DNA from: Candidatus Amarolinea dominans
GTDB lineage: Bacteria; Chloroflexota; Anaerolineae; SSC4; Amarolineaceae
NCBI GenBank assembly: GCA_016719785.1
Contig: JADJYJ010000010.1
Location: 1-64,000 of the forward strand
Direction of reading: 5' to 3'
Length of the DNA stretch: 64,000 nucleotides
A model generated the notes under the pieces. It did not search any database. It worked only from the letters and a program-made list of their open reading frames with translations, and was not told where the DNA came from. Positions 19 to 37,181 of the stretch are shown one piece after another. Position 1 is the first letter of the stretch. Each line of letters begins with the position of its first letter. Both the position numbers and the translations under genes were made by a program.

Positions 19-1529
19 ATGAACTGGAAACAGGTTTTGCAGCAGGCTATGGCAGTGACCCTGGTGATGTTGTTCTTGGCTGGATGTGGAAGCGCCATAC
101 CCACTTCGGTCGTCGAAGCTCCGGCTCAAACACCAGAGCCGCCAGCGCCGACCCCACCACCCGCTCCGCCAACACCTGGCTCTGGACCAAAGTCCGGGGC
201 GTCTGGCCTCGGCGACTCCTTGTATCCCGGCTTCGGTAATGGCGGCTATGATGTCCAGCATTATCGCCTTGACTTGACCGTCAGTGATGTTGGCGCCAGT
301 ACCCTAAACGGCGTTGCTACCATCGAAGCAAAGGCGACACAAGATCTGAGCGCTTTCAACCTGGACTTCATCGGTTTCACCATCGCGGGCATCACCGTGG
401 ATGGTCAGCCAGCCGAGTTCAGCCGCAGCGGGCAAGAACTGACGATCACGCCGGCAACGCCACTTGACGCAAACGAGCTCTTCACGGTCGAGGTAACCTA
501 CCACGGCGCACCTGAAGCGATTGAATCGGTTGCGATCCCTGTGCCGACCGGCTGGGTGAATTTTGGCCGGGGAAGCTTCGTGTTGAGCGAACCCGACGGC
601 GCTGCCAATTACTACCCGGTGAACGACCATCCCCTGGACAAAGCGACCTACACCTTCCGCGTCACCGTGCCCAAACCCTTCGCGGTTGCGGCGAATGGAG
701 TGCTGGCTGACACGATTGATCACGGCGATTCCACCACCTTTGTGGGAAGCCCGTGATCCGATACCAAGTTATCTGACCACGGTGAACATCAGCGAGTTCG
801 AAGTCGAAACCGAGGAAGGCCCGAATGGGATACCAATTCGCAACTACTATGCGGTGGGATTGGACGCAGCGATACGCGCACCTTTCGCCCGCCAGGCGGA
901 GATGCTCGCCTTCTTTGGCGAAATTTTCGGCCCGTACCCCTTCGAGGTGTATGGTTCGGTGGTGATGAATACGGAGGTTGGTACCGCCCTGGAAGCGCAG
1001 ACGATGGCGATCTTCGGCGTTGACATAATCAATCTTGAGGACATCTCGTCCGCTGAGCGGATCATCGCTCACGAAGTCGCGCATCAATGGATTGGAAACA
1101 GCGTCAGTCTGGCGGATTGGAGCGACATCTGGCTGAATGAAAGCTTTGCGGCTTATGCGGAGGGGCTGTGGGTTGAACACACAGGGAAGCGAAGCTCTTG
1201 ATGCGTGGGTCAGAGACCGATACGAGCATGTCGTTGAGTCCCGCGAGAAGATGACCCCGCCGGGCAAACCCGCGGCTGACAGCCTGTTCAACGGCGGGGT
1301 GTACGCCTGGGGGGCGCTGGGACTGCACGCGCTGCGGATCGAGGTCGGCGATGAGGCCTTCTTCGCTATTCTGAGAACCTATTTTGACCGCTTCGAGGGT
1401 GGCAATGTCAGGACTGCCGATTTTATCGCCGTGGCGGAAGAGGTCAGCGGACAGGAATTAGGGGCGTTCTTCGATAGCTGGTTGTATAGCGAGGAAATTG
1501 CTCCTATGCCTGCGTTGGGGCTGAAGTAG
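19..1529 (+). pseudogene. M1 family zinc metallopeptidase (aminopeptidase N-like) lipoprotein, split into three frames by two +1 frameshifts
   Basis: ORFs 19-756, 686-1201 and 1137-1529 are consecutive pieces of one protein. Piece 1 has the lipobox LFLAGCGS. Piece 2 has the gluzincin HEVAHQW motif and the downstream NESFAAY Glu. Each piece picks up where the previous one ends in the next frame. Confidence 0.8.
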
Positions 1530-1571: not shown

Positions 1572-2512
1572 TCAATTGCTTCGATACGCGGCCACGCGAT
1601 CCTGACGCCGCGCCAATTCGCTCGTGTAGCGCCGGCCCAAGGTGTCAGCATGGGTCGCGATCCACGCGCTGAGCGCGGTTGCGCCGGCCGGTTGGGCATC
1701 CACATAGAGTAGATTCGCCATCAGTCCGGCGATCTCCTCGTGCGTGATGGTCACATCGCCGACCAGCGCGCCAACCGCACGACCGACCCAGTAGCCCACG
1801 GCCGGCGGCATGCCGATCACCGGCCGCCGTGCGCCGATCAAGCGGCCGATGGTCCCCACCATCTCCCGGTAGGTGAACGTTTCGGGGCCGATGGCGTTAA
1901 TGATCGCGTTCTCCCGCGCCGCGCCCTGCACCACGGCCAGGGCAGCCAGGTCATCCACGTAGATCGGTTGCAGCTTGTAGGCGCCGTCGCCGAAGACGCC
2001 GAAGATGGGCAGGCGGCGCAGCAGCCAGGCGATGTTGTTGATAAGGATGTCCTCCTTACCGAAAAGCACCGTGGGCCGCAGGATGGCATACGACAGACCT
2101 GACTCGATCAGCGCCCGCTCCAGCCGGGCCTTGCCGCTGAAGTACTCCAGCGGCGAGTCCTCCGAGGGGTTGGTGATGCTCACATGCACGATCCGCGCCA
2201 CGCCGGCGCGTTTGGCCGCCTCGAAGAGCACGAGTGTATTGCGCACTGCGTCCGCGTGGCGAAAGAGCGGGTGGTTGAAACGTACCCAATAGGTGTTGTA
2301 GAGCACCTCGACCCCCTGCAGCGAGCGCGCCAGCTCGTCAGGCCGGTCGAAGTGGAACGGGTAAATCCGCAGCCGGCCTCCGAACGCGTTGGCGGTCGGT
2401 CGAGTTGGTGAGAGTGATCGTCGGCTGGCCCTGGGCAAGCAGACGTTGCGCAATGCTGCTTGCCGGAATAGCCGAACACGCCGGTGACGGCGTGGATGCG
2501 AGCTTCTGTCAT
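1572..2512 (-). pseudogene. NmrA-like / NAD(P)-dependent epimerase-dehydratase (atypical SDR), frameshifted near the N-terminus
   Basis: ORF 1572-2453 matches the SDR body (VHVSITNP, YxxxK-like region). ORF 2180-2512 starts MTEARIHAVTGVFGYSGKQ, which is the Rossmann GxxGxxG N-terminus, and then goes out of frame after about 20 codons. Confidence 0.7.
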
Positions 2513-4077
2513 TGATTCCTCTGACTTTGTTCAGCCGCCGGTTCTGACTTCCAGTCGCCTATGGCGCGTTTTTCCTTGTCGAAGGCAATGCCGATCAGCA
2601 CCACCGGTTTGCCGCTGGCGCGGTAGGGCTGATCGTAACCGCGCGCCCGAATCTGATCGAGCGCAACCTGCGCGCTGGTCATCTTGAATTCGATGATGTA
2701 GATTCTGTTGGGCAGTTCCAGCACCGCGTCTATACGGCCATGCGCCATGACCTCTTCGGCGTTCACCTCGAAGCCAAGTACGCTGAGGATCAGATAGACC
2801 AGTGAATGGTAGTAGGCTTCCAGCGGAAGATGAATGGTGTGAGGAATGCTGGCAAAGACCGAATTGAGGATCAGCACAAATTCGGCGATGGAATCCCGGC
2901 GCAGCGCCTTCTGCAGCCTGCCTGTCAAGGAAGATGGAAGGGCGCCTACCCGTGGCCCCAGATAATCCGCCAGCAAGTATTGCCTGAAAGCCTGTGCCAC
3001 TTCGTGATTGGGGTAGCCAAGCCGGTATTCGGTGCCAGCGACAGAGGGCAGTCTCTCTCGAATGGTGAGATAGCCGGTCTGAAATAGCAGGGAGACCGCA
3101 TCTATGTGATTCACGTCGGCCGAATCGAGCAACCGGTTGTCGGCATAGATTTCGTCCAGTTCATAGGCGGCCACCTGGTTGCTGCGCAGGAGTTTGATCA
3201 AGAAACTGGGCGTGGCGGTGGCGAACCAGTGATTCTCGAAGCTCTGCAGTTCGAAGAAGACCAGCGTGGAGAAGGGCACATAGAGCGTCTGCTTGCCATC
3301 CCAGGAAAAGCCGTTGTACCAGAAGCGGATGGCCTCCACCATCTCCGCCCGGCTGACGGCGAAGCGTGCGGCCAGGGCTTCGATGCGGTCGGGGAAGTAG
3401 CGCTCCAGTTCCTCCTGCGTATAGCCGACCAGGGTGGCAAAACGCTCGTCCAGGGTGATGTCGAGCAGGTTGTTCAGATCGGAAAAGAGCGACAGCTTGC
3501 CGTACTTGGAGATACCGGTCAGGAAAGTCCAGTGGATATGGTTGGCCGCGGTGGTCTTCAGCACCGAATAGAAATTTTTCAGGGTGGCGATATGCTCGGC
3601 CACCTTCTGCTCGTTCTCCAACAGGTCGGTGATAGCCCGGTCGTATTCGTCAATGAGCAGAACGATTTTTTGCTCGGCTGACAGGCAGACGATCAGTTCC
3701 TGGAATTTATCTTTGTAGTGTTCAGCCTGCAGTTGAACCTGATGCTCGGCGGCCAGGCGATCCAGGTGATTGGTCAGCGCTCGCTCCAACGGCTGTTCGT
3801 GATAGTCCAGATCGTTGAAGTTGATCACCAGCACCGGGCGCGGCCGCCAGTCAACCTTGTCTTCGATCCAAAGCCCGCGGAAAAGCTCACGATGTCCCTG
3901 GAAGAGATGCTGCAGCGTGGAGACCAGCAGCGACTTGCCAAAACGTCGCGGCCGCGATAAGAAGACGAAGGTTCCTGTGTTGATCAGCCGGTAGATCTGC
4001 TCGGTCTTGTCAACGTAGAGGAAATTGCCTTCGCGCAGCGAGTCGAAGAACTGGATACCGATCGGCAGCTTTTGCAT
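2509..4077 (-). CDS. Predicted AAA-ATPase (PF09820-like) with C-terminal PD-(D/E)XK nuclease domain (PF08011-like)
   Basis: N-terminus MQKLPIGIQFFDSLREGNFLYVDKTE and the FGKSLL Walker-like motif are typical of this family. The C-terminal RIDAVLELPNRIYIIEFK is the PD-(D/E)XK core. Start taken at the internal Met. Stop overlaps the epimerase start in an ATGA arrangement. Confidence 0.75.
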   Translation of the reverse strand: MQKLPIGIQFFDSLREGNFLYVDKTEQIYRLINTGTFVFLSRPRRFGKSLLVSTLQHLFQGHRELFRGLWIEDKVDWRPRPVLVINFNDLDYHEQPLERALTNHLDRLAAEHQVQLQAEHYKDKFQELIVCLSAEQKIVLLIDEYDRAITDLLENEQKVAEHIATLKNFYSVLKTTAANHIHWTFLTGISKYGKLSLFSDLNNLLDITLDERFATLVGYTQEELERYFPDRIEALAARFAVSRAEMVEAIRFWYNGFSWDGKQTLYVPFSTLVFFELQSFENHWFATATPSFLIKLLRSNQVAAYELDEIYADNRLLDSADVNHIDAVSLLFQTGYLTIRERLPSVAGTEYRLGYPNHEVAQAFRQYLLADYLGPRVGALPSSLTGRLQKALRRDSIAEFVLILNSVFASIPHTIHLPLEAYYHSLVYLILSVLGFEVNAEEVMAHGRIDAVLELPNRIYIIEFKMTSAQVALDQIRARGYDQPYRASGKPVVLIGIAFDKEKRAIGDWKSEPAAEQSQRNQ

Positions 4078-4230
4078 GGCGGTATTGTAGCACAATTGCG
4101 TCAGAAGTTGGAAATCACCCTCACGATCGGGGTTGATTCGCATCGTTATGATCTGTATCGTGCGGGTATTCCATCCACAGAAAACAGGTCATCAAGCAGG
4201 CAACCGCACTGACTGCCGCCGCCGAGTGAA

Positions 4231-7200
4231 TTAGGGTCGCCCGGCGCTCGCCACCGACGCCGGCCACCAGGACGGCGTCGGAATGGCCCCGCGGCCCGCC
4301 AGCCCGCTGTGGTTGATGGTCACCAGGCGGTCGCCCTGCGAGGCGCCGACGTTGTACGGCGTCGCATTCGGGTCCGGGCCTTGCCCCACTTCAACCCACC
4401 ACATGTAGACTTCGCCTGACGGCCAGCCGGCGGGAATGCCCGTCAGGTTGACGCAAGCCACGTTGCCCAGGAAGGCCGTCGTGGCGGTTTCGCCGGTCAG
4501 CCAGTTGTAGAGCGCCAGCCGGTAGGTGTCGGTGGCTACGCCGCGCGGGGTCCAGCAGAACTGCGCCGGCAGCGTGATCTCGGCCCCATCCTCTGGCGAG
4601 ACCAGTGCGACATCGGCCACGTCGAAGTCTCCGCCCCAGGCCGTCGCGCCTGCGGTGTAGGCGGCCAGCCGGTTGCCCCACCAGCTCCACAGATACCCCT
4701 CGCCAGGGTTGGGGTCGTCGGGGGTGTTCAGATAGCGCACCGCGTAGAACTCGTCCGCGGTCAGCGCCGGCGCGCCGACGAAGAGATAATTGCCGTTTGC
4801 GGCCGTTATCGTCGCGGCCTGTGTGCTCCAATCATCGCCGTTCCAGCGCCGGAGGTCCAGCCGTAAACCGCCCGCGGCCGCGCCGTGCGAGGTGACCCGA
4901 CCGTAGATGCCATTGGCAGACGCTGTGGCTGTGGGGGTAGCGGTGGGCGTGCGCGTACGCGTGGCGGTCGGTGTGTTGGTCGGCGTGCCCGCGGACGCGG
5001 TGGGCGTGCGCGTGGGCGTGACGGTCGGCGTGCGGGTGCGCGTGGCGGTCGGTGTGCTGGTCGGCGTGCCTGCGGACGCGGTGGGCGTGGCGGTCGGTGT
5101 GCCTGCGGACGCGGTGGGCGTGCGCGTCGGGGTACGCGTCGCGGTCGGTGTGCGCGTGGGCGTGCTGGAAGCGGCGGCGGTCGGCGTGACGGTCGCGGTG
5201 GCCGCGCCAGAACGGCAGCCGAAGTCCTGCGCCCAGTAATGTTTGTAAGTGCTTGCTGCGTTGTAGCCGTAGCCGACGCCAATCTCGCAGACCAGGGGAT
5301 TGAGGAGATTGGCGCGATGGGGCGGGCTGTTCAGCCAGGCATTCACCACTGCTTCGGCTGAGTCCTGCCCCCAGGCGATATTCTCAGCAATCGTGTAGTG
5401 CGGCGAGTAACCGAAGCCGACCAATCTCGTGGTCATGTCACGGCCCAGGCGATCAATGTGGTTGGCGCTGATGTAGTTATACGCCGCCATGTCCCCGGCG
5501 AACCAGGCGGACGCATTGCCCAGGTTGGTCTGTGTTTGCAGCGGCGGCAGGCCGTTTTGGCTGCGCGCGGCGTTACTCAGCTCGATGACCCGGCGCACAA
5601 AATCGTTGCTGGTCGTGGTTGGCGTGGCCGTGGGAGTGCGCGTGGGCGTTGGCGTGGGGCCGCCCCCGCCCGCACGCCGCAACAGCGGCAGATACAGGCG
5701 TGGCGACTGCATCCGGAACCGGGCCGCCTGGAAGCTGGTCTGCTGGTCGAAGCTCACGCGGACGCCGAAGGTGTACTCGCCTTCCGGCGAGGTGGGCAGT
5801 CGCCCTTCCAGTGTCAGCGTGTTGGCGCCGGGCGCCAGCGTGCGCGTGCCGCTCTCGGAGAGCGCCGGGATCGCCTGGCGCGCGCATCCACCAGGATCAG
5901 GCTGTAGGTCGCGGTCACATCCTGCCCCACGCGGCCGGCGCTGCTGGCGGTATTGCTGATCACCGCGCGCAGACGGATGGACGCGCCGGGCGTCAGTGCA
6001 ACCGCTGGATTGCCCGCGCCGTCCGTCACCTCGACCGCGGCCATCTGCACAGGCGAGCAGGCGCGCGGGGTCAGGCCGATGTCCAGGTCCGTCACCGGCG
6101 GCGGTACGGTCACGGTGCGGCTCTGCGCGTCGGCGAAGCAGGGCTTGGCGGCCAGCACGTAGAAGCTGCCCGCTGACGTCTGCCAGCCGTAGCGACCGTC
6201 GCTGTTCGTGGCCTGCGGGTTGAGCTGCCCGGAAAGGGCCGGGTTCCAGATCGCGTCGCCCGTGACCGGGTCGCGCTGGTAGAGCGTCACCACCGCGCCT
6301 GGCAAGGGGGCGCTCGTGCTGGCATCGAAGACCTTGCCGGCCGGATCAATGCAGGCCAGCCGGCCGCTCAGCACAGTCTCGGTCATGGTGACGCCATCGG
6401 ACCAGACGACCCGCTTGGTCACGACGACGCCCAGGGCCGTGTTGGGGATGCTCGCCGCGCCGCGGTAGAGTCCGCCGCCGGAAAAATTGGACACACGGGT
6501 CATGACGCCCAGCAGGTTGCCCTGGCTGTCCACCAGGGTGACGCTGCTCGGCGGGTCGCCGTAGATCGGCTCCTCGACTGTGATGCTTGCGTGTGGTACA
6601 CATGAGACCACGAAGGGATAGTTGGCTGAAGTCACCCCGCGCCAGGTGTAGGGGCCGTAGGTGACGGTGGCCGCGCCCAGCCCGCGGCTGACATCCGACC
6701 GCACGGTGAATCCCTGGGCGAGTACGCCTGCCCGGCCGTTGGGATTGGTCACGGTTACATCGCGCGCCTGGCGCCAGGCCCGCGACCAGCGTTCCGCGCA
6801 CGCGCGCGCGGAAGGGCGGCGCTGTCTCGTCGGGCAAGTGCTGAAGGCCCTGCACGATGCTCGACCCCACCGCCGCCTGCAAGCCGGGCTGGAAGAAGTA
6901 GCCCAGGATGGTGACTTCGACGTTGATGCCCGCGCTGGCTGACGCCGGTTCGATGGCATCTACGATCGGGGTCGCGCCGTCGAAACAGCGCGAGAACTCC
7001 GAGGTGTTGCCGTTGGGGTCCGTGGCGGTGGCCGTCATCTGGTCACCGGCCGGCACCGCATTGACGAAGGTGGCCGAGAACGCGGCATTGCCCGAGGCGT
7101 TGGTGGTGGCCGTAGTTGCGCCCAGGAACGTCCCACCCTCGCCGTAACCCGAAGGATCGCAGGTGGGGCTGGCGAAGAATTCCAGCCGATAGCTCTGCGA

Positions 7201-10200
7201 GGGCTGGCTGTTGATGGAGCCGGTCAGGGTCTTGCGGTTGGCGGAGAGGGTCAGCAGCAGCGGGAAGTTCTGCAGGCGGTTGGGGCCATCGTCCGCGTCA
7301 CCGCTGTCGTTGGCCGTCGCCCCGGCCGGCGCCAGGTCGAGGCCCAGGCTGTCGTTGGCGAAGATGCTGTTGACCGCGAAGGTGTTGGTCCGGCCAGAAT
7401 CGGCGAAGACGCCCGCCCCGGCGTTATGGGCGATGACATTGCCTTCGCCCGCTCCCGCGCCGCCGATGTCGTTCTCACTCGCGCCCAGGGTGAAGAAAAC
7501 GCCATGACCATCATTCCCCAGCGCGCTCGTTCCGTCCGCTGCGGCGCCGATGAAATTGCCTTGCACGGTATTTGTGGTTGCGCCCGGCCGCGTCAGTTGG
7601 ATGCCGTCCTCGCCGTTGCCGGAGATGACGTTGCCCGGCTGAGGGCCTGCGCCGCTGCGCGGCCCGCCGATGGTGTTGCCACTGGCGCTGTCAACGGCCA
7701 CGCCCGCACGGGTGTTGCCCAAACTGGCCGCGCCCACCGCGTCCGGGCCGATCAGGTTGCCCAGCACTTTGTTGCCACTGGCGGCCGTGCCATAGATGCC
7801 CACGCCGTTGCCGCTGTTGCCAGAGATGACATTGCCGGGCAGCGCGCCCGCCGGCGCCGCTGCTCCGCCGATGATGTTACCCGGCGCACCCTGCACGACG
7901 ACGCCATCACTCCCGTTGCTCAGAGCGACCGTGCCCGCCGCGTTCACGCCGATGGAATTGCCCAGCACCTTGTTGCCGCTGGCGCCCGCGCCTTCGATCT
8001 TCACACCCGCCTGGCCGTTGGCTGCAATCACGTTGCGCGGCGAGGCGATGCCGACCAACGTTTCGCCGCCGATGGTGTTGCCCGGCGCGCCTTGAAGATA
8101 GACGCCGTTCAGGCCGTTGCCCAGGGCCCGTGTGCCCGTCGCGTCCGTGCCAACCAGGTTGCCCCGCACGACATTGCCCATGGCATTGGGGCCGGCAATC
8201 GCAATGCCGTGCCCTTGCGCGCCGATCAGCCCGTTGCCGGAGATGGTGTTGCCCGGCGCCGACCCCATCACGGTCGTCTCCCGCCAATCGAATTGCGCGG
8301 CGCGTCGAAGATCTTCACGCCATTGGCCCCATTGCCCAGCACCCGCGCCCCGGTTCGATTCGGCCCGATGATGTTGCCCTGCACCCGGTTTTCCGCGGCG
8401 CCGCTCTGGATGGCGACGCCGTCGAGCATGTTGCCCGAAATGATGTTCTCGACGTCGAACCCCGTTCCGCCGATCTGATTGGTGTTCGTTCCCGCGTCCG
8501 TCAGCAGCACGCCGCTGAGCAGATTGGGCAGCGCGTTCTCACCGGCCAGGTCCGTGCCGATCAGGTTGCCCTGCACCGAGCTGTTGGCGGCGGCCAACGA
8601 GATGAGCACACCCACCCCGTGGCCTTCAGCGCCGTCGCCGTTGCCGGAGATCAGATTGCCCGCGAGCGCGGCCGGCGGGTTGTTCGACCCGCCGACGGTG
8701 TTGCCGGGCGCACCGGTGATCTCGACGCCGTGAAAGCCGTTGGGCAGCCGTCTGGCGCCGGTCGCGTCCGCGCCGATGATGTTCCCCAACAGCCTGTTGC
8801 GCGTGGCGCCGCCCGCCAGAATCACGCCGTCCTGCACGTTGCCGGAGATCAGATTGCCGGGCGCCGCGCCGCGGGTTGCCGTAGCCCCGCCAACCGTGTT
8901 GTCGTTCGCCGCGTTGATCTGCACCCCGCTGAGTCCGTTGCCCCTGGCCGTCGCGCCGGCCGCATCCGTGCCGATACGATTGCCGGCCACGGTATTTTGG
9001 GTGGCGCCGTTCTGCAGGCTGATGCCGTATTGGCCGTTCCCGGAAAGCACATTGCCTTCTCCGACGCCCGGCCCGCCGATGGTGTTCGTATTTGCCGCGT
9101 CCACGACCACGCCGCTCTGGCCGTTGCCCAATGCCGTCGTCCCGCTCGCGTCCATGCCAATCCTGTTGCCCTGCACCTTGTTGCGCGCTGCAGCCTCCGC
9201 CAGACGCACGCCGTCCTGACTGTTGGCCGCGATGATGTTGCCCTGGAACGCGGCCGACCCGCCGATGAGATTGAGATCGCTGCCCGCGCTGTAAACTGCC
9301 ACGCCGTGGCGTCCGTTGCCCAGTCGGGCGTTGGCGGTATTGACGCCGATGGCGTTGCCGTAAATGATGTTCTCTGCCGCGCCGTTCTGGATCGTCACGC
9401 CATCCAGCCCGTTGCCGACGATGATGTTGCCCCCATCAACCGCAACCCGCCCCACCTGGTTGGTGCGCGTGCCCGCGCCGTCCAAAATCACGCCGCTGAG
9501 CCGGTTGGGCCGCGCCAGCGTGGCGGTGGCGTCCGCGCCGATGACGTTGCCTTCGATTTTGTTCAGCGTCGAGCCGGCGCTGACGAACACGCCCACGCCG
9601 TTGCCCTGGCTGCCATCGCCGTTGCCCGCGATGACGTTGCCGGGCGCGCTGCCGGCGGGGTTGGCCGGCGCGCCGATGAAGTTGCTGGACGCGTTCTCGA
9701 GCGAGACGCCGTGCTGGCCGTTGCGCACCACCGTCGTGCCATCCGCGGCCAGGCCGATGAAGTTGCCGTAGATGCGGTTGCTGACCGCGCGATCGCTCAG
9801 CAGCACACCGCTGCGACCGTTGCCCGCAATCACGTTGCGCGACTCGCGATCCTCGCCGCCGACCAGGTTGGAGGCTGTGTCGGAACCAACCAGCGCGACG
9901 CCCGCGTTGCGGTTGCCCAGGTTGGCGCTCCCCGCGCTGTTCGTGCCAATCAGGTTGCCCTTGATTTCGACGCCGGTCGTGGTCCCGTGTAGAACAATGC
10001 CGACCCCACTGCCGGCCGCGGCGCTGCCGTTGGCCGCAATCACGTTGCCGGGCGGCGCCCGGCGTGGCGCTGCGCCCGCCGATGAAGTTGACGCCAGCGT
10101 CCGCCACCTCGATGCCGTGCAAATAGTTGCCCAGCGCTCCCCCGGCGCCGGTCAGGCCGATGAAGTTGCCCTGGACACGATTATCTCTGGCGCCGTTGCC

Positions 10201-11835
10201 GATCCACACGCCATCCAACTTGTTGCCGGAGATGACGTTGCCTTCGGCCGCGGTCGTCCCGCCGATCGTGTTTTCCCTGGCGCCGTTGATCTCGACCCCA
10301 TGGCCGGCGTTGCCCGGATCAGGGTGGGCGAACGGCACGGCGCCGATCAGGTTGCCGAGCACGTGATTGCCCGCCGATGTGCCCGAAATATGCACGCCGC
10401 TGCCGGCGTTGCCCGCGATCACGTTCTCCGCGCCGTCGGCCGTGCCGCCAACCTGGTTGTCGAAGCTATTCGCGATGGCGATGCCGGCGCTGCCGTTGCC
10501 CAGAAGCCCTGCGCCCCATTGCAGCCCAACTCTATTGCCCTGGATGCGGTTCCCGTTGGCGCCGGCATACAGATAGATGCCAACGTTCCCGTTGCCGGAG
10601 ACCACGTTGCCTTCCTCCTCCGTATCGCCGCCGATGTCGTTGCCGTTGGCGCCCTGGAACACGATGCCGTAGCTCGTGTTCGGCAGGGCGGCGAGGCCCG
10701 AGCTCGTCAAGCCGATCCCGTTGTTCTGAATAGAGACGCCCGCGGTCCCGTTGTAGAGCAAAACGCCATTGGTGTTGCCGGAGATCAGGTTTCCCTGTCC
10801 CTCCGCGGCCCCCCCTACGTAGTTCTCATTCGCGGCTTGAATGCTGACCCCCGCGCCAGGGCTGTTGCCTAGCGCCTGGTCGCCCGTCTTGTTCGTCCCC
10901 ACGTAGTTGCCATAGATCCGGTTGCCGGTCGTCGCGCCGTTGATGAACACGCCGGTATGGTTGGCGCTGATGACATTCCCCTCTACGCGGTTGTTGGGGG
11001 AGCCGCGAATCTCGATGCCCGAAAGCGCGTTGCCCTTCGCTTGCGTGCCGCTCAGACCAACGCCGATATAGTTGCCGGTAATGATGCTGCCGCCGCCGTC
11101 CAGAATGAAGATTCCAACCTGGAAGCGGTTGATCGCCAGCCCCTTCACCGTGGTGGAACCTGCCCGGATCTCAAGCCCATTGGCCTGGTAGGACGGGGTG
11201 CCGTCCAGCTCGATGACCGGGGCGCCGTTCCAGCCGGGCTGCGTGGTCGCGTCAATGGTCACCGGATCGGTGATGACCGGCAGCCCCGGCCCCTGCATGA
11301 AAATCGTGTGCGGCCCAGGCGGATCAATGGCAAAGGTGATGTCGTCGTGGCCGGGGTTGGCGTTGGCAAGATAAATGGCGGCGTAGAGCGAGTCTGGCCC
11401 GTCGGGGTTGGCGTTGCGCACGATGTAGCCCTGGGGCGCGGCAGATTGGGCGGCCGCTGGCTGCGTTGATTGAAGCGCCGAGAGCAGGCGCGCGGTCGCG
11501 GGAATGCCGCCAACGACCGTCGCGGCCCGAACGCCATCGGCCCAGGTTGAGGCGTAGGCGAGGGGCGCCGACGAGGAGACGACAACCGCGCCGGGCGCGG
11601 TCTTCTTCGACGCCGGCGCTGAAGCGCCGCGGACGACGAAGGTCGTCTGCAGGCCAGCGGGAGCCGGGATGGGTGCGGTTCGACGCGGCCCTTCCGCCGC
11701 AGACTGCGAACCTGCGGTGAATGTCAACATGAGGGAGATCGCCAGAGTAAAGGCAATGTGCCCGGCGCGGGCAGCCAGGCGCAGCAAGGTGTATCGCAGC
11801 GGCATGTATCTTATCATCGTGTTCATGATCACCAT
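4231..11835 (-). pseudogene. Giant (~2,500 aa) secreted parallel beta-helix (PbH1) repeat protein with Cna-B/CarboxypepD_reg-like domain, PT-rich linkers and a C-terminal CAP/SCP/PR-1 domain; split by about 4 frameshifts
   Basis: Five ORFs (9436-11835, 8268-10043, 6346-8271, 5814-6959, 4231-5757) continue one another across frame changes. The N-terminal signal peptide is followed by hundreds of GNxIGxxxxG.../NxIGG beta-helix turns. The CAP domain shows ...[13 protein letters not shown]... and ...YWAQDFG. TPT(A/R)TPT linkers separate the domains. Confidence 0.8.
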
Positions 11836-12150
11836 CTTTCCCAGGGCTTATGCTACACTCACTGCACAATCCGCCGTCGGTAGTTGCCGCGTATTTTGGA
11901 GTTGTTTGACAGAGCGATGAAGAAATCTGACTGCCTCATGGCGGCAGGCGGAAAGGAGCATTCTGTGTGAGAGATAATTTACGGACTTGTATAGCACTAA
12001 TACCGAATTAAGTCAAGTCGGGTTGGAGATGGACAGCAACCCCAAATGTGGGTTTTAGGCAGAATCGGCGCGGTTCGAGTGACTCCCACGATCCGGACCG
12101 GTGCAAGAAGGAGGAAAAGATGAAACACTCGCGCTCGAAGGCGATACACC

Positions 12151-12366
12151 ATGGATAACGAGAGACGAGCGACGATCAGAGAGCGATTAGCCCTGGTCAG
12201 CGACCAGTTGACAACGGGTGACAGCGCGCTGGCTGTCGTCTTGAGCGAGGCGCGCTTGCAGGCGGGGTTGGCGGCCTACGAACGCGCTCGAGCCGATGGC
12301 CTGTGCCATGAAGGCGCCTGGGAATGCGCGCTGGAGGCCATGCAGGCTCCTGCCGCTGAGACCTGA
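12151..12366 (+). CDS. Small hypothetical helical protein, 71 aa or longer; true start possibly the ATG at 12120 after an AGGAGG
   Basis: ORF in the AT-rich leader upstream of the recombinase. A strong RBS, aaggagg, precedes the ATG at 12120 in another frame (MKHSRSKAIHHG*), so a frameshifted 83-aa protein is possible. Confidence 0.3.
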   Translation: MDNERRATIRERLALVSDQLTTGDSALAVVLSEARLQAGLAAYERARADGLCHEGAWECALEAMQAPAAET

Positions 12367-12610
12367 GTATGCGTGCCGCCGTAACTGCTCAGCCAGGCAG
12401 TGAGAATGGTCTCGATAGCGCCCTTCGCGTCCTTGCGACTTGGCGTTATGGTTACAAACGACAAGAAGGTGGTGAAGAGAAGGGACTTGCACTTTGACAA
12501 TCGAATAGAACTTCCTATCTGTTTCGGGCGCAAGCGAGAACGCTGAAGTTACGGTGGCTGAAATGTGCTATCCTGAATAAAGTCATGAGGCGAAATTCAG
12601 GAGGCAGCCA

Positions 12611-12820
12611 ATGAAAGCAAAAACAGAATGGCGAGTACGGATGGAACGCCAAGCCCATCGAGATGCCATGCACAGACTGAAAGCCGCTTATCAGAAATTG
12701 AGTCAAGAAACAGAGCCGAAGGAGGTTCGTAATGAAACAGACAGCTGCGTTGTATGCCCGTGTTTCGACGCAACGCCAGGAAGAGGAGGCCACGATAGCC
12801 AGCCAGGTGGCGGCGATTGA
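12611..12820 (+). CDS. Small basic protein overlapping the recombinase start, possibly a recombinase accessory or regulatory protein
   Basis: AGGAGG lies 7 nt upstream of the ATG at 12611. The ORF reads through the recombinase RBS and start, suggesting translational coupling. Confidence 0.35.
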   Translation: MKAKTEWRVRMERQAHRDAMHRLKAAYQKLSQETEPKEVRNETDSCVVCPCFDATPGRGGHDSQPGGGD

Positions 12821-14307
12821 AGAATGTCCCACCCACGAGGGTACGCCTTGCGAAAGGACTTGTATTTTCTGGACGAGGCGGTGAGCGGGGCGAAATTGGA
12901 TCGTCCGGCGCTGGATCGGTTACGAGACCGAGAAGGTGAAGGCTGTTACCAGGTGGTGATCTGCCTGAGTCCAGATCGGTTGGCAAGGGTGTACATGTTG
13001 CAGGTGCTTCTGCTGGAAGAATTTCGGCAAGCCGGGATACAAATGTTGTTTGTGAACCAGCCTCCGGTGAGCGATAGCCCGCAGAGCCAACTGTTGTTCG
13101 GCATTCAAGGGTTGTTTGCCGAGTATGAACGGGCTGTGATTGCCGAACGGATGCGGCGAGGGCGTCTGCATTGCGCACGTCAGGGAGCAATGGTCAACCC
13201 AAAGACCCCATATGGGTATGATTACGTGCCCAAAACAGGGAGGGAAGGCGGGCGTTGGGAAATCAATGCCGAAGAAGCCAGGGTCGTGCGTCAAATTTAC
13301 GCCTGGTATACCCAATCCGAGCCGATGACTATTCAAGAAATCACAGATCGCTTGAATCGAGACGGCCTCCAACCGCGTCGCGGGAAGTGCTGGCGCAGTA
13401 GCCTGATTGAAACATCCTGCGACAAACCCAATATACCGGATTGGCTTACTACAATCGCACCGAAAAGGTGTATCATGAGGTGGGGCGATTGCGTAAAATT
13501 GGGCATGGCAAGCGTCTTTGCCCGGTGAGTATGCTTCGCCCCACAGAAGAATGGATTGCCATTCCCGTCCCCAGCATTTTGGACAAGGATATCTGGCGCA
13601 TGGCACAAGAACGACTGAAAACGAACCAGCGATTCTCAATGCGCAACAATCGCAACCACCGCTATCTCCTGCGCGGCTTGTTGATTTGCGCCACTTTTAG
13701 CCATACACTCACCGCCCCGCTGGGAATGGCTATTTTTCCTGGCTGTGGCTATGGCGGTGTTCACCGTGCCCCCGATACGCCTGAGCATACCTGCCGCATT
13801 GACGGCAACACCGTTGAAACCCTGGTTTGGAACGCAGTGGTGGAGCTTTTGAAAAATCCCAAACTGATTTCCCAAGCGTGGGGCTGCGATGAAGCTGCCA
13901 ACATCGAGCAAGGTGAGAAAGAGCGGTTGGAAAATCGCTTGCGATCGCTCGACCGTCAGCAAGAACGTCTGCTGGACTTGTACCAAGATGAGCAGATCGA
14001 AAAGCCATCCTACCTGGTGCGCAAACAACGTCTGGATGAGGAGCAAAAAAACATTCAAACGCGCCTTCTGCAAATCGAGCAAGAGGCCAAGTCCGAACAA
14101 ATCAAGCAGGAATTGATCGAAGATTTCCAGCAATATTGCCAGCGTATCCAGGAAAACCTTGCAAATCCCAGCCCGGATTTACAACAGGAAGTGATTCGGT
14201 TGTTAATTGATCACGTTGTTGTCGGAAAAAATGAAATCGTGATCAAGCACATCGTCCCGACCGATGATGATTGTCGTTTGAAACCACAACGTCTTTGCGT
14301 TGAATAA
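12732..14307 (+). pseudogene. Large serine recombinase (resolvase domain + recombinase domain + zinc ribbon/coiled coil), split by two frameshifts
   Basis: GGAGG then ATG at 12732 gives MKQTAALYARVSTQRQ, with the catalytic Ser in the resolvase N-terminus. The frame changes at about 12830, where a GGG homopolymer sits. It continues in ORF 12824-13528 (VFVNQPP..., DRLNRDG) and changes again near 13440 into ORF 13441-14307 (AYYNRTEKV, Cys-containing zinc-ribbon region and a long coiled coil). Confidence 0.8.
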
Positions 14308-14470
14308 CGATTTTTACACAAGGGCGTGGTGCAGGAAAGCGCGCGCTTTCCGAAAAATGAACAAGAAGTGAGCACTGTTCGATCTGTTCACAGAGCATCA
14401 TTCGCGTGTATCCTGGGGTCACTGATGATCGGTACGAGGCCGATGTCAATCACCGGCAGGAGATGCAATC

Positions 14471-15058
14471 ATGACGAACCCAGGCGCCGAGAGACCGCTT
14501 TCCAATTCCAATCCCAACACTCATGCCGCCGTTCTCGACGCCAGCCTGGCCGGTCTGTTGACAGCCCGCGTATACTATTCTTTTACCACCATCTGGCAAC
14601 TCGCCGCACCGGTTGCCCCCATCTGGACGGCGATTACCGAGGTTGAGCGATGGCCGCAGTGGTGGCGGGGGGTCGAGGCGGTCGTCCGCCTGCGCCGCGG
14701 GGACAGCCGCGGGATCGGCGCCGCCCACCACTACACCTGGAAGAGCAAGCTGCCTTATCGTCTCACCTTCGTGATGGAGACAACCTGCATCGAACCGTTC
14801 CGGCGCATCGAGGGCCGCGCCACAGGCGAGTTGGAAGGGACCGGTTACTGGACCTTCAGCGAAGCCAATGGCATCACGACTGCGCGCTACGATTGGAACG
14901 TGACGACCACCAAGCGCTGGATGAATCTCCTGGCGCCGCTCGCGCGACCGTTCTTCGCCTGGAACCACGACATCGTCATGGCGTGGGGCCGCGAAAGGGC
15001 TGTCCGCCTTACTGACTGCGCCCCTGCAAGCCTGGCCTCGACGGCCAGCCAGGCCTGA
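14471..15058 (+). CDS. SRPBCC superfamily protein (polyketide cyclase / dehydrase-like, COQ10-like)
   Basis: [14 protein letters not shown] followed by a beta-grip-like body typical of PF10604/PF03364. Confidence 0.65.
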
Positions 15059-15146
15059 GGTGCGCAGTCAGGGCGGCGCCTCCGCGCAAGACCTGTCGAA
15101 TGGCCGCAAGCGCCATCTTCAATATCCTGGTAACGAGGTATCATCT

Positions 15147-15761
<615 letters not shown>

Positions 15762-17545: not shown

Positions 17546-19618
17546 TCAATGGGTTGCCATGCGCAGATAGAGGTCCTCGAAGGGCAGGTCGTTGAGCACC
17601 GGCAGCTGCGCCAACGCCCGCTGCGCCTTCTCAACCAGCGTGCGTTCGTCGCCGGACACCTTCTGACCCACCAGGGCTAGAATCTCACCCAGGCTCTTGC
17701 CCTTGACCTTGTTCAAGTCCACGCTCTTCTCGGCCACACGCATCACCTCAGGCACCAGGGCCGCCAGTTCTTCGATGCTGGTGCCCGGCGCCGCGGCCTT
17801 GCCGCTCTCCGTAGCCGCCATGCGCACCAGGCTATCGCCGGCTGGATCGCCAGTCGCCCGGTTGATCAACTGCTGGCCAATCTCCCGCACCGGCTCGGGC
17901 GCGGCCCTGATCACTTCACCGATGCCGTCGGCCAGCGTCACCAGGCGCAGCAGGGAAGCGGCCGCGTTCGGATCGCCGATCAGCTTGATATTCATGGACG
18001 CGAGGGCCGAGCCAAGCGCCTGGGCCTTGGCGATCTCGATGCGTACCTGGGCATCCAGTTGCAGCTTCAGCATTTCCACGCGCTGCGCCACGCCGTCGAA
18101 CGCGGCCAGCGCCTCGGCCTTGGCCTTGGCACTCTCGGCCTCGGCCAGGCCGCGGGCGCGTATCGCCTCGGCCTCGCGCATGGCCGCATCGGCCTTGGCC
18201 TTCATGACATCGGCCTCTGCCAGGCCGACCGCCGACGAGGTCGCCTTCGTGCCCTCCGCGCGCAACTTCGACGCCTCCGCCTCGGCCTGGGCTTGGGTGC
18301 GCAGCGTGTCGGCCTGTTTGAGCGCCGCTTCGGCTTCGGCCGCGGCGATCTCTTTCAAGGCTTTGGCCTGCGCTTCGGCCTCGCGCTGCTTGCGCAGCGC
18401 ATCCAGCTCGATGCGATTCTTCTGTTCGATGACCGCTTTCTGCGCCTCGCGCTCGGCCTCGATCACGCGGATTCTGGCTTCGCGCTGCGCTGTCTGCGTG
18501 GCCTGCACCGTCACCACCGCCTGCGCCGCCTCCTCGCGTGCGGCCGAGACCAGCAGGCGATCCTTCTCGGCGCCCTCGCGTTTTTGCTGCTCGGTCAGAA
18601 CGATGATCTGGCGCTGCTGTTCTGCCATTTCGATGGCCTGGCGTCGCGTCACCTCGGCCCCCATCACCTCTTGCTGTTTGCGCTCATTCTGGATGGCAAG
18701 CTGTTGGTCGCGCTCGATTTCCATCAGCGCCACGGCCCGTTCCTTGGCCACGCGCGCCGCTTCCGATTTTTGTATTTCCTCGTACTCGCGTAGCTCGGCC
18801 TGCGCCTTTTCCACCGCCTGGCTTGTCCGCACCTCGCGTGACTGGGTGGCGGACGCCAGGGCCAGTTCACGATCCAGGTTGAGTCGCAGCCGCGCGGTGT
18901 CGGTATCGCGCTGCTTGATCTCGATCTCCGCGGTGCGTTCGATGTCGTTACGCTCGCGCAGCGCCTGCTGAATGACCTGGGCGTTGGCGCGCGCCACCTG
19001 GGCGCCGAAGACATCATCGGTGCCGAACGATCCCTGCCGCGCGGCGCGCAGGGTCAGCACCGACACCGATTCGAGCACCAGGCCGTTTTCCTCCAGGTCG
19101 GTCTTGAGCCGATTCTGCACCTCCTGGATGAACTTCTCGCGTTCCTGGTGCAGGCTCATCAGCGTGAAGGAGGCCGCCACGTCGCGCAGCGCGCCATCCA
19201 GCTTGGCTTCGACCAGCTGCTTGACCGCGTTGACATCCACCTGCTTGCTGCCGATGGTGCGCGCGGCGTCAATGATACCTTCGACGGTGGGGTTGACTTT
19301 GACGTAAAAGATGGCCTTGATGTCCGCGTACTGCGGGTCTTTGGTGAGAAGGGCGTTGTTTTCGGTGCGTTCGATGTCAATCGCCATCGTGCCCAGGTCA
19401 ACCCAGGTGATTTCATGGATGGCCCGGAACACCCAGGCGCCGCCGTTCATCACCACCTTGGGCGGGTTATTGACCTTTTGCGACAGGCCGCCCGTGCGCA
19501 CGAACGAACGATTGGCCGGCGTTTTGACATAAGAGCGCATGACGGAGCGCACGAGGACCAAGAGGAGCAAGAGCACAACTGCAAGAATCACGGAACCATA
19601 GACAACGGCTATCTGCAT
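17546..19618 (-). CDS. Flotillin-like SPFH/band-7 protein (YqiK/FloT type), 690 aa
   Basis: N-terminal TM, SPFH domain and the very long Ala/Glu/Gln-rich coiled coil (EAEREAQKAV...) typical of bacterial flotillins. Confidence 0.85.
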   Translation of the reverse strand: MQIAVVYGSVILAVVLLLLLVLVRSVMRSYVKTPANRSFVRTGGLSQKVNNPPKVVMNGGAWVFRAIHEITWVDLGTMAIDIERTENNALLTKDPQYADIKAIFYVKVNPTVEGIIDAARTIGSKQVDVNAVKQLVEAKLDGALRDVAASFTLMSLHQEREKFIQEVQNRLKTDLEENGLVLESVSVLTLRAARQGSFGTDDVFGAQVARANAQVIQQALRERNDIERTAEIEIKQRDTDTARLRLNLDRELALASATQSREVRTSQAVEKAQAELREYEEIQKSEAARVAKERAVALMEIERDQQLAIQNERKQQEVMGAEVTRRQAIEMAEQQRQIIVLTEQQKREGAEKDRLLVSAAREEAAQAVVTVQATQTAQREARIRVIEAEREAQKAVIEQKNRIELDALRKQREAEAQAKALKEIAAAEAEAALKQADTLRTQAQAEAEASKLRAEGTKATSSAVGLAEADVMKAKADAAMREAEAIRARGLAEAESAKAKAEALAAFDGVAQRVEMLKLQLDAQVRIEIAKAQALGSALASMNIKLIGDPNAAASLLRLVTLADGIGEVIRAAPEPVREIGQQLINRATGDPAGDSLVRMAATESGKAAAPGTSIEELAALVPEVMRVAEKSVDLNKVKGKSLGEILALVGQKVSGDERTLVEKAQRALAQLPVLNDLPFEDLYLRMATH

Positions 19619-23303: not shown

Positions 23304-23415
23304 CTGAAAACGCTTCTCCAAATTCGTAGATTTCTTGTGTCGGGCTGACGGGTGTAAAATGGTGATCAATTCCGAAATCGAACCTCACTCTGCAGGATAG
23401 GGAGCACGGATACGC

Positions 23416-27321: not shown

Positions 27322-27335
27322 AGGGTCCTCCTCAC

Positions 27336-27390
27336 GAGAGACTGAGAGACTGAGAGATTGAGAGATTGAGAGATTGAGAGATTGAGATCG
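27336..27390. repeat. 8-bp tandem repeat (gagagact/gagagatt, about 7 copies) in the 5' leader of the GH gene
   Basis: gagagactgagagactgagagattgagagattgagagattgagagattgagatcg, 15-70 nt upstream of the start codon. Confidence 0.85.
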
Positions 27391-27476
27391 CACCTGAAGG
27401 GCGTGACGGCCAGGCCATAGATTAGTACACGAGCAGCAGGAGAGGCGCATCGGATCAGCGCCTCTCCTGCTCGGAT

Positions 27477-36687: not shown

Positions 36688-36765
36688 ACACCTCCTCTAC
36701 CCTAGATAACGCTACTTTATCACAGCGTTACTTTACCCAACTTTGGTAGTGGTGTCCAGTCCTCA

Positions 36766-37177
36766 TTTCACATCGTACGGTGTCAAATCGAGCAGATTCA
36801 GAGGAATCCACCCTTCAAGAGAACCTGAGGATTTGACAAAGGCCCAGAATTCTTGATCGGTATTTGACCAGGCAAAGTCCCAAATGGTAACTTCTTTGTA
36901 GCATGGCAGAACCCCCAACAGATTACCTCTGTCACCCATGTATGCACTGTTTGGATCTGAAGGCTTGACACCGGGCAGTTCCCAGATACTAATCCCGCCT
37001 GGATCTAATTTCGGATCCCCTGTACATCCAATACTCGCCTTTTTTGGCAGTACTTGTAGTTCGTGTGGTGTTGTTGGTGTTCTCTCGGGGAGGGGTCGGT
37101 TGAGGCGATATCAAGGCGCATCCGTTCAGCGTCAACATAAATAAACACATCGTTATGGTCAATATGGTATTCAGCAT
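36766..37177 (-). pseudogene. Small lipoprotein starting 4 nt after the giant RHS stop (candidate immunity protein), frameshifted
   Basis: MLNTILTITMCLFMLTLNGC lipobox in ORF 36989-37270. After a frame change near 37000 it continues ...GCTGDPKLDPGGISIWELPGVK...WIPLNLLDLTPYDVK* to 36766. Low-GC region. Confidence 0.45.
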
Positions 37178-37181
37178 GGCG

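What the first reader, a model, noticed from the sequence alone, without database searches (positions are those of the whole stretch)
4231..11835. About 2,500-aa secreted beta-helix adhesin-like protein ending in a CAP/PR-1 domain
After the signal peptide there are well over 1,500 residues of parallel beta-helix turns (NxIGG/GNxI repeats), then a Cna-B/carboxypeptidase-regulatory-like beta-sandwich. A PT linker follows, then a CAP/SCP/PR-1 domain ([15 protein letters not shown]), another PT linker and an about 230-aa C-terminal domain of unknown function (WxxWW-rich: [19 protein letters not shown]). CAP domains fused to giant beta-helix proteins are uncommon. The gene lies adjacent to a serine-recombinase islet, which hints at horizontal mobility or recent rearrangement. 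It is broken into five ORFs as sequenced.
Basis: partly seen in the sequence, partly recalled or inferred. Interest (0 to 1): 0.6.

Follow-up and report, generated by a model that had tools for sequence, protein, structure and literature searches.

The report
Giant beta-helix surface protein, falsely split
The five reading frames are one roughly 2,535-residue secreted surface protein of an uncultured Anaerolineae bacterium, most likely split by small sequencing deletions; it belongs to a very large, functionally unstudied family of beta-helix proteins and is unusual only in its C-terminal add-ons.

Summary
Window 11835-4231 (minus strand) encodes one modular protein of about 2,535 aa. Four small deletions, at about 10055, 8283, 6763 and 5884, split it into five ORFs. 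A syntenic relative with 94% nucleotide identity (L001, a short-read MAG) carries the gene as a single intact ORF. A 99.6%-identical contig from another assembly (L006) reads straight through junction 3. Other genes in the window are broken in the same way, so the frameshifts are most likely assembly errors.

The domain order is: signal or anchor peptide, about 1,300 aa of right-handed beta-helix (not more than 1,500), five Ig-like beta-sandwiches, a YLP-box motif, PT linker, CAP domain, PT linker, and a C-terminal module. That "unknown" C-terminal module is a pair of beta-sandwiches, one transthyretin/CnaB-like and one FN3-like. It has no Pfam model but matches at least 764 protein clusters, nearly always at the C-terminus of secreted proteins.

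The serine-recombinase islet is a real 2.5-kb low-GC insertion or replacement just upstream. The giant gene itself sits in conserved synteny.

Function is inferred only: a rigid extracellular fibre or adhesin. This is a new member of a known kind and of low to moderate interest. The most interesting by-product is the internal YLP box, which NCBIfam names a putative C-terminal sorting motif.

The parts
4231..11835 (-). Whole gene. It encodes about 2,535 aa once the four small deletions are repaired, and is read as five ORFs in the window as it stands.
   Evidence: intact orthologue at L001 5375-13246
11698..11835 (-). N-terminal signal peptide or membrane anchor (aa 1-46): an Arg-rich stretch followed by the hydrophobic segment IAFTLAISLMLTFTAG. 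The start codon and first ~18 codons lie in DNA that has no counterpart in L001.
   Evidence: hydropathy scan; homology to L001 begins at window <=11781. No signal-peptide predictor was run.
11431..11697 (-). Ala/Pro/Ser-rich spacer (aa 47-135)
   Evidence: sequence
7351..11430 (-). N-terminal cap plus right-handed parallel beta-helix (aa ~136-1495). It has a 62-67-aa super-repeat, and about 58 coils are inferred.
   Evidence: Pfam NosD and Beta_helix; TIGR03804; autocorrelation peaks at lags 62, 67 and 134-136; more than 5,600 homologues
10050..10056 (-). Frameshift junction 1. The window lacks 2 nt relative to L001 (CCGGGCGC--CGCCCGGC).
8279..8284 (-). Frameshift junction 2. The window lacks 1 nt in a G run (GGGG to GGG).
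6976..7350 (-). Beta-helix C-terminal cap with the Asp-rich NDSGDADDGPNRLQNFP motif, followed by a Big_6-like Ig domain (aa 1496-1620)
   Evidence: Pfam Big_6 E 2.3e-4, below the cutoff; this stretch is also conserved in Acidobacteriota and Bacteroidales loci L002-L005
5716..6972 (-). Cassette of four beta-sandwich domains: IPT/TIG-like, unnamed, CarboxypepD_reg-like and CARDB-like (aa 1622-2040)
6762..6764 (-). Frameshift junction 3. The window lacks 2 nt (TA) that are present in both L001 and the 99.6%-identical L006.
5878..5885 (-). Frameshift junction 4. The window lacks 1 nt in a GCGCGC context.
5671..5700 (-). YLP box, [10 protein letters not shown] (aa 2046-2055), lying internally just before the G4/PT linker
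   Evidence: motif found in 85 of 267 related proteins against about 3 expected by chance; positional preferences; NCBIfam NF053834 and NF050076 hit the same motif at the C-termini of P0072 and P0056; disordered in the AF2 model
5215..5613 (-). CAP/SCP/PR-1 (YkwD-like) domain (aa 2075-2207)
   Evidence: Pfam CAP 59.6 bits against a cutoff of 21.1; TIGR02909 4.9e-22, below its cutoff; PDB 4IFA E 1.5e-7
4927..5208 (-). Second Pro/Thr linker (94 aa here; 31 aa longer in L001)
4291..4926 (-). C-terminal two-sandwich module (aa 2304-2515): a transthyretin/CnaB/CarboxypepD_reg-like domain followed by an FN3-like domain
11782..14323 (.). Low-GC (51-56%) islet of 2.5 kb carrying a frameshifted large serine recombinase (12824-13528 plus 13441-14307, + strand). 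L001 has 254 unrelated nt at this position. The islet is adjacent to the gene and supplies its start codon.

Best explanation
Shown: window 11835-4231 (minus strand) is a single gene for a modular protein of about 2,535 aa from an uncultured Anaerolineae (Chloroflexota) bacterium. The five ORFs arise from four 1-2-nt deletions.

Most likely, though not proven for all four sites, these deletions are consensus errors of the assembly and not real mutations.

Inferred mechanism:
- An N-terminal signal or anchor peptide sends the protein through the Sec pathway.
- About 58 coils of right-handed beta-helix form a rigid rod of roughly 25-30 nm. This assumes about 4.8 A rise per coil, from general knowledge of beta-helices.
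- Five Ig-like sandwiches extend the rod.
- A YLP box and PT linkers then tether a CAP domain and a terminal two-sandwich module.

The terminal module is shared by hundreds of otherwise unrelated Chloroflexota exoproteins, including S8 and C1 peptidases and malectin-like and sortilin-like proteins. This suggests it performs a task common to all of them, most plausibly holding them at the cell envelope or sheath, or on a polysaccharide. It is unlikely to be a protein-specific catalytic domain. On this reading the whole protein is a non-enzymatic surface fibre or adhesin-like stalk. The biochemical role of the CAP domain is unknown. A distant CAP-like relative, DalA, binds peptidoglycan non-covalently, which makes envelope binding a reasonable guess.
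For: One gene:
- The frames join without stops and the GC3 phase is continuous across the junctions.
- L001 (MAG Anaerolineae NJ_NJASGE3bin.1, a k141 short-read contig) is syntenic and ~94% identical in nucleotide sequence, and carries one ORF with the same domain order.
- P0196 (2,477 aa) is a third full-length homologue.
- dN/dS between the window and L001 is 0.31 overall, and 0.17-0.29 in the middle, CAP and C-terminal parts. There are no nonsense codons.

Artefact:
- The only frame-breaking indels relative to L001 are the four junctions, and all four are deletions in G+C-rich runs.
- L006 (GCA_049292995.1) is 99.6% identical over 1,570 nt and differs by one gap only, the 2 nt missing at junction 3.
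- Other genes in the window are split in the same way: an M1 peptidase into 3 ORFs, the recombinase, a GH18 protein, an RHS protein, and the gene at 14471-15761, which has three 1-nt indels relative to L001.
- The window's ORF is NCBI MBK9093635.1 on a 273,855-nt MAG contig.

Domains.

Shared terminal module:
- It has 3,630 hits at E<=1e-3 and 764 at E<=1e-30.
- In 132 of 147 top representatives it lies within 60 aa of the C-terminus.
- Its partner domains are diverse.

DalA binds peptidoglycan (PMC10470522, abstract). The NCBIfam DalA model overlaps the CAP region at E 2.4e-7.
Against: - Only junction 3 is shown to be intact in a near-identical (99.6%) assembly. For junctions 1, 2 and 4 the comparison is with a genome that is 94% identical.
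- Two of the deletions are 2 nt long and not in homopolymers, which is less typical of long-read error.
- The upstream islet replaces the native 5' end, which could have silenced the gene and allowed real decay.
- No read data could be inspected.
- Function is entirely inferred. No signal-peptide predictor was run, the beta-helix part was not modelled, and no ligand or partner is known for the CAP domain or the terminal module.
- NosD/CASH-type beta-helices also include polysaccharide lyases and hydrolases, so an enzymatic role for the rod is not excluded.
Confidence: 0.7

Rival explanations
1. The gene is a true, recently inactivated pseudogene in this strain. The four deletions would be real mutations, accumulated after the recombinase islet replaced the promoter and 5' end.
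For: There are four independent frame-breaking deletions in 7.6 kb, two of them 2 nt long and outside homopolymers. The islet supplies the start codon and the upstream DNA.
Against: Unrelated genes across the window carry the same kind of break. The 99.6%-identical L006 lacks the junction-3 deletion. dN/dS is 0.31 and there are no nonsense codons.
Confidence: 0.15
2. The five ORFs are separate genes, or a chimera of unrelated genes.
For: The only support is the ORF table as it stands. NCBI annotated one piece as a protein of its own (MBK9093635.1).
Against: That annotated piece ends in about 170 aa of out-of-frame Arg/Gly/Pro-rich sequence. L001 and P0196 carry all the parts in one ORF in the same order. 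Domains run across the junctions: the IPT/TIG-like domain spans junction 3 and the CARDB-like domain spans junction 4.
Confidence: 0.01
3. The protein is a secreted polysaccharide-active enzyme. The NosD/CASH-type beta-helix would be the catalytic or binding body, and the sandwiches, CAP domain and terminal module would serve as carbohydrate-binding appendages.
For: The NosD and Beta_helix families include pectate-lyase-like enzymes (general knowledge). The terminal module also follows real hydrolases, namely S8 and C1 peptidases. The neighbourhood contains GH5-like and GH18-like genes.
Against: No glycoside hydrolase or lyase family was hit and there is no PDB sequence match for the helix. 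A 1,300-aa, highly regular repeat is far longer than known catalytic beta-helices (general knowledge).
Confidence: 0.15
4. The YLP box is a processing or sorting site. The mature surface protein would end at about aa 2055, and the PT-CAP-PT-terminal-module tail would be cleaved off or used as a sorting or anchoring cassette, by analogy with sortase signals or type IX secretion system (T9SS) C-terminal domains.
For: NCBIfam names the motif a putative sorting motif and hits it at true C-termini. It is about 30-fold enriched, and sits either at the extreme C-terminus (13 cases) or directly before a PT linker or the terminal module (51 cases). It is disordered in the AF2 model.
Against: No processing enzyme has been identified and no paper was found. 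Only 40 of 147 terminal-module proteins have the motif upstream. The internal motif could not be scored with the NCBIfam model.
Confidence: 0.15

Closest known systems
Giant right-handed parallel beta-helix repeat proteins of Planctomycetota and Chloroflexota. These are annotated as 'beta strand repeat-containing protein', 'right-handed parallel beta-helix repeat-containing protein' or 'NosD domain-containing protein' (Pfam PF13229/PF05048).
   Same: It has the same repeat type, at 35-43% identity over more than 700 aa to thousands of proteins. The C-terminal cap motif (NDxxDxDxGxNxLQNFP) is also conserved in Acidobacteriota and Bacteroidales loci.
   Different: This protein carries a tail of five sandwiches, YLP box, CAP domain and terminal module. 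In the sampled set only its orthologues L001 and P0196 have that tail. No member of the family has a tested function, as far as I know.
Bacterial CAP/SCP domain proteins: YkwD family (TIGR02909), B. anthracis 4IFA, S. aureus 4H0A, Borrelia BB0689, Rhodobacter DalA
   Same: The Pfam CAP match is well above threshold. The H, ENIA and HRxNL motif residues align with 4IFA.
   Different: It scores far below the YkwD (78 against 171 bits) and DalA (31 against 200 bits) cutoffs. Known bacterial members are small proteins of 150-370 aa or lipoproteins, whereas here the domain is an internal module of a 2.5-kaa protein.
Gram-positive surface fibres and pilins built from CnaB, transthyretin-like and Ig-like sandwiches (SpaA, BcpA, SdrD B domains)
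   Different: There is no LPXTG signal and no Cna_B Pfam hit. Isopeptide residues were not examined. Sequence identity is only 9-16%.
YLP-box putative sorting motif (NCBIfam NF053834 'ultrashort_CTERM', NF050076 'sort_motif_YLP')
   Same: RLYLPLLRR differs in two positions (K to R, V to L) from the C-terminal KLYLPLVRR of P0056, which reaches the NF053834 cutoff (11.3 against 10 bits).
   Different: Here the motif lies about 480 aa from the C-terminus and is followed by two linkers and two modules.
Two-partner-secretion and autotransporter beta-helix adhesins (FHA/TpsA, pertactin)
   Same: Both are long secreted beta-helical rods.
   Different: No TPS domain, ESPR or beta-barrel translocator was detected, the repeat family is different, and I understand the host phylum to lack a classical outer-membrane secretion route (my general knowledge, not tested here).

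Membership tests
Right-handed parallel beta-helix repeat proteins (Pfam Beta_helix PF13229 / NosD PF05048) | HMM match above the gathering threshold | tested here: met
   NosD scores 89.2 bits (cutoff 23.6) and Beta_helix 80.3 bits (cutoff 25.9).
Right-handed parallel beta-helix repeat proteins (Pfam Beta_helix PF13229 / NosD PF05048) | Regular coil periodicity of about 22 aa, with Gly/Asn turn motifs | tested here: met
   There are 54 GNx[IVLF] motifs. Autocorrelation peaks at lags 62, 67 and 134-136, which I read as about three coils of ~21-22 aa per super-repeat.
Right-handed parallel beta-helix repeat proteins (Pfam Beta_helix PF13229 / NosD PF05048) | Three-dimensional beta-helix fold | not tested
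There is no PDB sequence match.
CAP/SCP/PR-1 superfamily (PF00188) | HMM match above the gathering threshold, covering the full profile | tested here: met
   It scores 59.6 bits against a cutoff of 21.1, over profile positions 3-117 of 117.
CAP/SCP/PR-1 superfamily (PF00188) | Conserved His/Glu motif residues | tested here: inconclusive
   NH, ENIA and PHRANL align with SH, ENIA and GHRKNL of 4IFA. The complete tetrad was not mapped onto a structure.
YkwD subfamily (TIGR02909) and DalA equivalog (NF052539) | Score above the curated cutoff | tested here: not met
   It scores 78.2 bits against 171 for YkwD and 30.7 against 200 for DalA.
CarboxypepD_reg (PF13620) / Cna-B | HMM match above the gathering threshold | tested here: inconclusive
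IPT/TIG (PF01833) | HMM match above the gathering threshold | tested here: not met
YLP-box putative sorting motif (NF053834 / NF050076) | Motif sequence | tested here: inconclusive
   A regular expression matches RLYLPLLRR, with strong family-wide enrichment. The NCBIfam models returned nothing for the excised peptide.
YLP-box putative sorting motif (NF053834 / NF050076) | Position at the extreme C-terminus ('ultrashort CTERM') | tested here: not met
   The motif is at aa 2046-2055 of about 2,535.
TpsA / autotransporter adhesins | TPS secretion domain or C-terminal beta-barrel translocator | tested here: not met
   Pfam found no such families on the joined protein, and NCBIfam found none on the L001 orthologue.
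Pseudogene | Frame-breaking mutations that are real in the organism's DNA | not testable with these tools
   Reads are not available. Indirect evidence points to artefact.

The most novel reading that the evidence does not exclude
The YLP box would be the cleavage or attachment site of a Chloroflexota-specific surface-display pathway that has not been described in the literature. The recurrent tail 'YLP box - PT linker - two-sandwich module' (here with a CAP domain inserted) would be its sorting or anchoring cassette, playing a role like the T9SS C-terminal domain or the sortase signal. On this reading the giant protein is one cargo among hundreds.
Probability: 0.15. Interest if true: 0.65.

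Novelty: new member of a known kind. Interest (0 to 1): 0.3.

Why it matters
For annotation, five deposited fragments should be merged into one gene. One of them is MBK9093635.1, which carries about 170 aa of out-of-frame sequence at its end. The assembly also has frame-breaking indels in several other genes.

Biologically, the protein is one more giant beta-helix surface protein of a filamentous Anaerolineae lineage, and no function has been tested.

The wider value lies in two by-products:
- The C-terminal two-sandwich module is a very large family without a Pfam model.
- The YLP box, which NCBIfam treats as an ultrashort C-terminal sorting motif, is often internal and sits directly in front of that module. 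If a sorting pathway stands behind this arrangement, it would bear on how Chloroflexota display exoproteins.

Tried and rejected
- Exact look-ups of the window ORFs returned nothing: window 4231-5757 and P0271.
- Literature searches for the YLP motif and for 'YLP-box' found no relevant paper.
- NCBIfam scans of the excised motif peptide gave no hit, because the peptide is too short for HMMER's filters.
The cassette was therefore modelled on the 82%-identical P0196, so that model is of a homologue and not of the window protein.
- The afdb50 fold library was unavailable, so the taxonomic range of the terminal module rests on a few source names only.
- The third protein search was meant to find near-identical fragments spanning junctions 1 and 2. 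It returned only homologues at 35-43% identity.
- The search for homologous proteins appears to list only hits up to about 1.75 times the query length (maxima of 787, 641 and 1,339 aa). It therefore cannot show how rare the CAP plus beta-helix fusion is.
- Programmed frameshifting was considered and rejected. The orthologue simply has the extra bases at all four sites.
- No inverted or direct repeats flank the islet convincingly. I1 (21 nt, 90% complementary, 12444/14271) lies inside the islet.
- The DalA paper does not itself call DalA a CAP protein. That link is my inference from overlapping HMM hits.
Full report
**Observation.**
The minus strand of window 4231-11835 carries five long ORFs in alternating frames. 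I read all three frames and the DNA at the overlaps. Each ORF continues the repeat pattern of the previous one after a shift of one base. Four single-base repairs give one frame of 2,534 aa without stops. A third-position GC plot changes phase exactly at about 10051, 8251, 6751 and 5851, so coding continues across every junction.

**Is it one gene?**
A scan of species-representative genomes with the middle region found L001, a MAG of an Anaerolineae bacterium (NJ_NJASGE3bin.1, contig k141_1575997), matching over the whole query at 97% identity in the best tblastn segment.
- L001 is collinear with window 2528-15727 at about 94% nucleotide identity.
- It holds the gene as a single ORF, 5375-13246, with the same domain order from the hydrophobic N-terminus to the last residue. 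Protein identity is 92%.
- In a global DNA alignment, the only frame-breaking differences inside the gene are the four junctions. The window lacks 2, 1, 2 and 1 nt at about 10055, 8283, 6763 and 5884. Two further differences are in frame: 30 nt in the leader and 93 nt in the second PT linker.
- A third full-length homologue, P0196 (2,477 aa), came from the representative search.

**Artefact or pseudogene?**
Four lines of evidence favour artefact.
- Breaks of the same kind occur across the window. An M1 peptidase is in three ORFs (19-756, 686-1201, 1137-1529). The serine recombinase is in two. A GH18 protein and an RHS protein are in several pieces. The gene at 14471-15761 has three 1-nt indels relative to L001.
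- L006 is a 1,570-nt contig of a different assembly (GCA_049292995.1). It is 99.6% identical to window 7724-6157, and its only gap is the TA that the window lacks at junction 3.
- dN/dS between the window and L001 is 0.31 overall and 0.17-0.29 in the non-repeat parts, and there are no nonsense codons.
- The window's 641-aa ORF is exactly NCBI MBK9093635.1, on a 273,855-nt MAG contig. A contig of that size fits a long-read assembly, although I could not verify the sequencing platform.

Against this, only junction 3 is covered by a near-identical sequence, and two of the deletions are 2 nt long and outside homopolymers. I put a real pseudogene at about 0.15.

**Anatomy** (joined-protein numbering; window coordinates are in the parts list).
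- aa 1-46: an Arg-rich stretch followed by a hydrophobic segment. No signal-peptide predictor was run.
- aa 47-135: an Ala/Pro/Ser-rich spacer.
- aa ~136-1495: N-terminal cap and right-handed beta-helix. The evidence is NosD 3.3e-25 and Beta_helix 1.5e-22, TIGR03804, and a 62-67-aa super-repeat with 54 GNx[IVLF] motifs. This is about 1,300 residues, not more than 1,500.
- aa 1496-1620: C-terminal cap with an Asp-rich motif, plus a Big_6-like domain (E 2.3e-4, below the cutoff). This stretch is the part conserved in Acidobacteriota and Bacteroidales loci.
- aa 1622-2040: four beta-sandwiches. They are IPT/TIG-like (Pfam below cutoff), unnamed, CarboxypepD_reg-like (32.1 bits against 32.3) and CARDB-like.
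It is all-beta with pLDDT 70.5.
  - The same cassette occurs on its own in P0269 and P0270.
- aa 2046-2055: [10 protein letters not shown], the YLP box.
- Next come a G4/PT linker, the CAP domain at aa 2075-2207 (59.6 bits) and a 94-aa PT linker.
- aa 2304-2515: the C-terminal module.

**The C-terminal module.**
It has no Pfam hit. Even so, 20 homologues in the first search carry it behind PT linkers. Their N-terminal parts are unrelated to one another and include S8 and C1 peptidases and malectin-like and sortilin-like domains.
- A 19-sequence profile (A1) found 3,630 representatives at E<=1e-3 and 764 at E<=1e-30.
- In 132 of the top 147 the module lies within 60 aa of the C-terminus, and 46 carry two or more copies.
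- So it is a common module of ordinary fold without a Pfam model, not a unique domain.

**The YLP box.**
The motif [x]YLP[LV][VIL][LM][RK] occurs in 85 of 267 fetched proteins, against about 3 expected from shuffles.
- It sits at the extreme C-terminus in 13 cases, before a P/T/S-rich linker in 38, and directly before the terminal module in 13.
- NCBIfam has two models for it, NF053834 'ultrashort_CTERM' and NF050076 'sort_motif_YLP', both described as 'YLP-box putative sorting motif'. They hit the C-terminal copies in P0072 and P0056.
- I found no paper on it.
- In the target the box is internal, and it is disordered in the model.

**Surroundings.**
- The 3' neighbour (2509-4143) is an AAA-ATPase_like/PDDEXK_9 gene, conserved in L001.
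- On the 5' side, window 11782-14323 (2.5 kb, 51-56% GC against 64-70% for the gene) has no counterpart in L001, which has 254 other nucleotides at that position.
- This stretch encodes a large serine recombinase (Resolvase plus Recombinase domains) that is itself frameshifted.
- The start codon of the giant gene lies inside this unique DNA.
- The islet is therefore a strain-level insertion or replacement next to the gene. It is not evidence that the gene itself is mobile.

**Mechanism (inferred).**
I propose Sec export followed by a long rigid beta-helical rod and an Ig-like stalk. The CAP domain and the terminal module, tethered by PT linkers, would serve envelope or substrate binding.
- The terminal module's presence on many unrelated exoproteins argues for a shared localisation or binding role.
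- DalA overlaps the CAP region in NCBIfam at E 2.4e-7 and binds peptidoglycan non-covalently (PMC10470522). That link is a lead, not a test, because the paper does not call DalA a CAP protein.
- An enzymatic beta-helix is not excluded.

**Comparison and verdict.**
- The helix belongs to a very large family, with more than 5,600 hits at 35-43% identity, mostly Planctomycetota and Chloroflexota.
- Among all 391 proteins fetched, only P0196 combines helix, CAP and terminal module. That sample is biased by an apparent length cap in the word-index search.
- The verdict is a real single gene, a new member of a known but functionally unstudied kind, with an uncommon C-terminal accretion. Interest is low to moderate.
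- The internal YLP box in front of the widespread terminal module is the lead most worth following.

Noticed in passing
window 19-1529 (+), 12824-14307 (+), 14471-15761 (+), 25900-30428 (-), 34161-42467 (-): Several unrelated genes are each split into 2-5 overlapping ORFs: an M1 peptidase, a large serine recombinase, an SRPBCC-like gene, a GH18/SH3 protein and an RHS-repeat protein. Where L001 overlaps, the cause is a 1-nt indel in a G or T run. The assembly seems to carry frequent frame-breaking indels, mostly in GC-rich stretches.
   Followed up: partly
window 5671-5700 (-); P0002-P0221 and others: A YLP-box motif (consensus vYLPLvL[RK]) is about 30-fold enriched in the related exoproteins. 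NCBIfam (NF053834, NF050076) calls it a putative ultrashort C-terminal sorting motif. In most cases seen here it is internal, directly before a PT linker or the C-terminal module. No publication was found.
   Followed up: partly
window 4291-4926 (-); alignment A1: The C-terminal two-sandwich module has no Pfam model, yet its profile finds 764 representative clusters at E<=1e-30. Copies are often in tandem (46 of 147) and lie behind enzymes of many kinds. It is a candidate for a new domain-family entry.
   Followed up: yes
window 11782-14323: A 2.5-kb low-GC islet carries a large serine recombinase and has no counterpart in the 94%-identical L001. It provides the start codon and upstream region of the giant gene. 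No clear terminal repeats were found; a 21-nt inverted repeat at 12444/14271 lies inside the islet.
   Followed up: partly
window 5716-6972 (-); P0269, P0270: The four-sandwich cassette (IPT-like, unnamed, CarboxypepD_reg, CARDB-like) recurs as a unit at 44-51% identity in two shorter Chloroflexota-type proteins. In P0269 it is followed by a YLP-like box (LWLPFILRD), and in P0270 by a dockerin.
   Followed up: partly
window 4927-5208 (-) vs L001 12295: The second PT linker differs by an in-frame 93 nt (31 aa) between the two relatives. This suggests length variation by repeat slippage, or collapse of the repeat during assembly.
   Followed up: no
window 21387-23369 (-), 17546-19618 (-): An LVIVD-repeat beta-propeller protein (Pfam 1.2e-67) and a 690-aa SPFH/Band_7 protein with a long GC-rich tail lie nearby. 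The region is rich in large secreted or surface proteins.
   Followed up: no
The search for homologous proteins outputs: The longest hits listed were 787, 641 and 1,339 aa for queries of 460, 435 and 765 aa. This suggests a length cap near 1.75 times the query, so giant multidomain relatives are invisible to that tool.
   Followed up: partly
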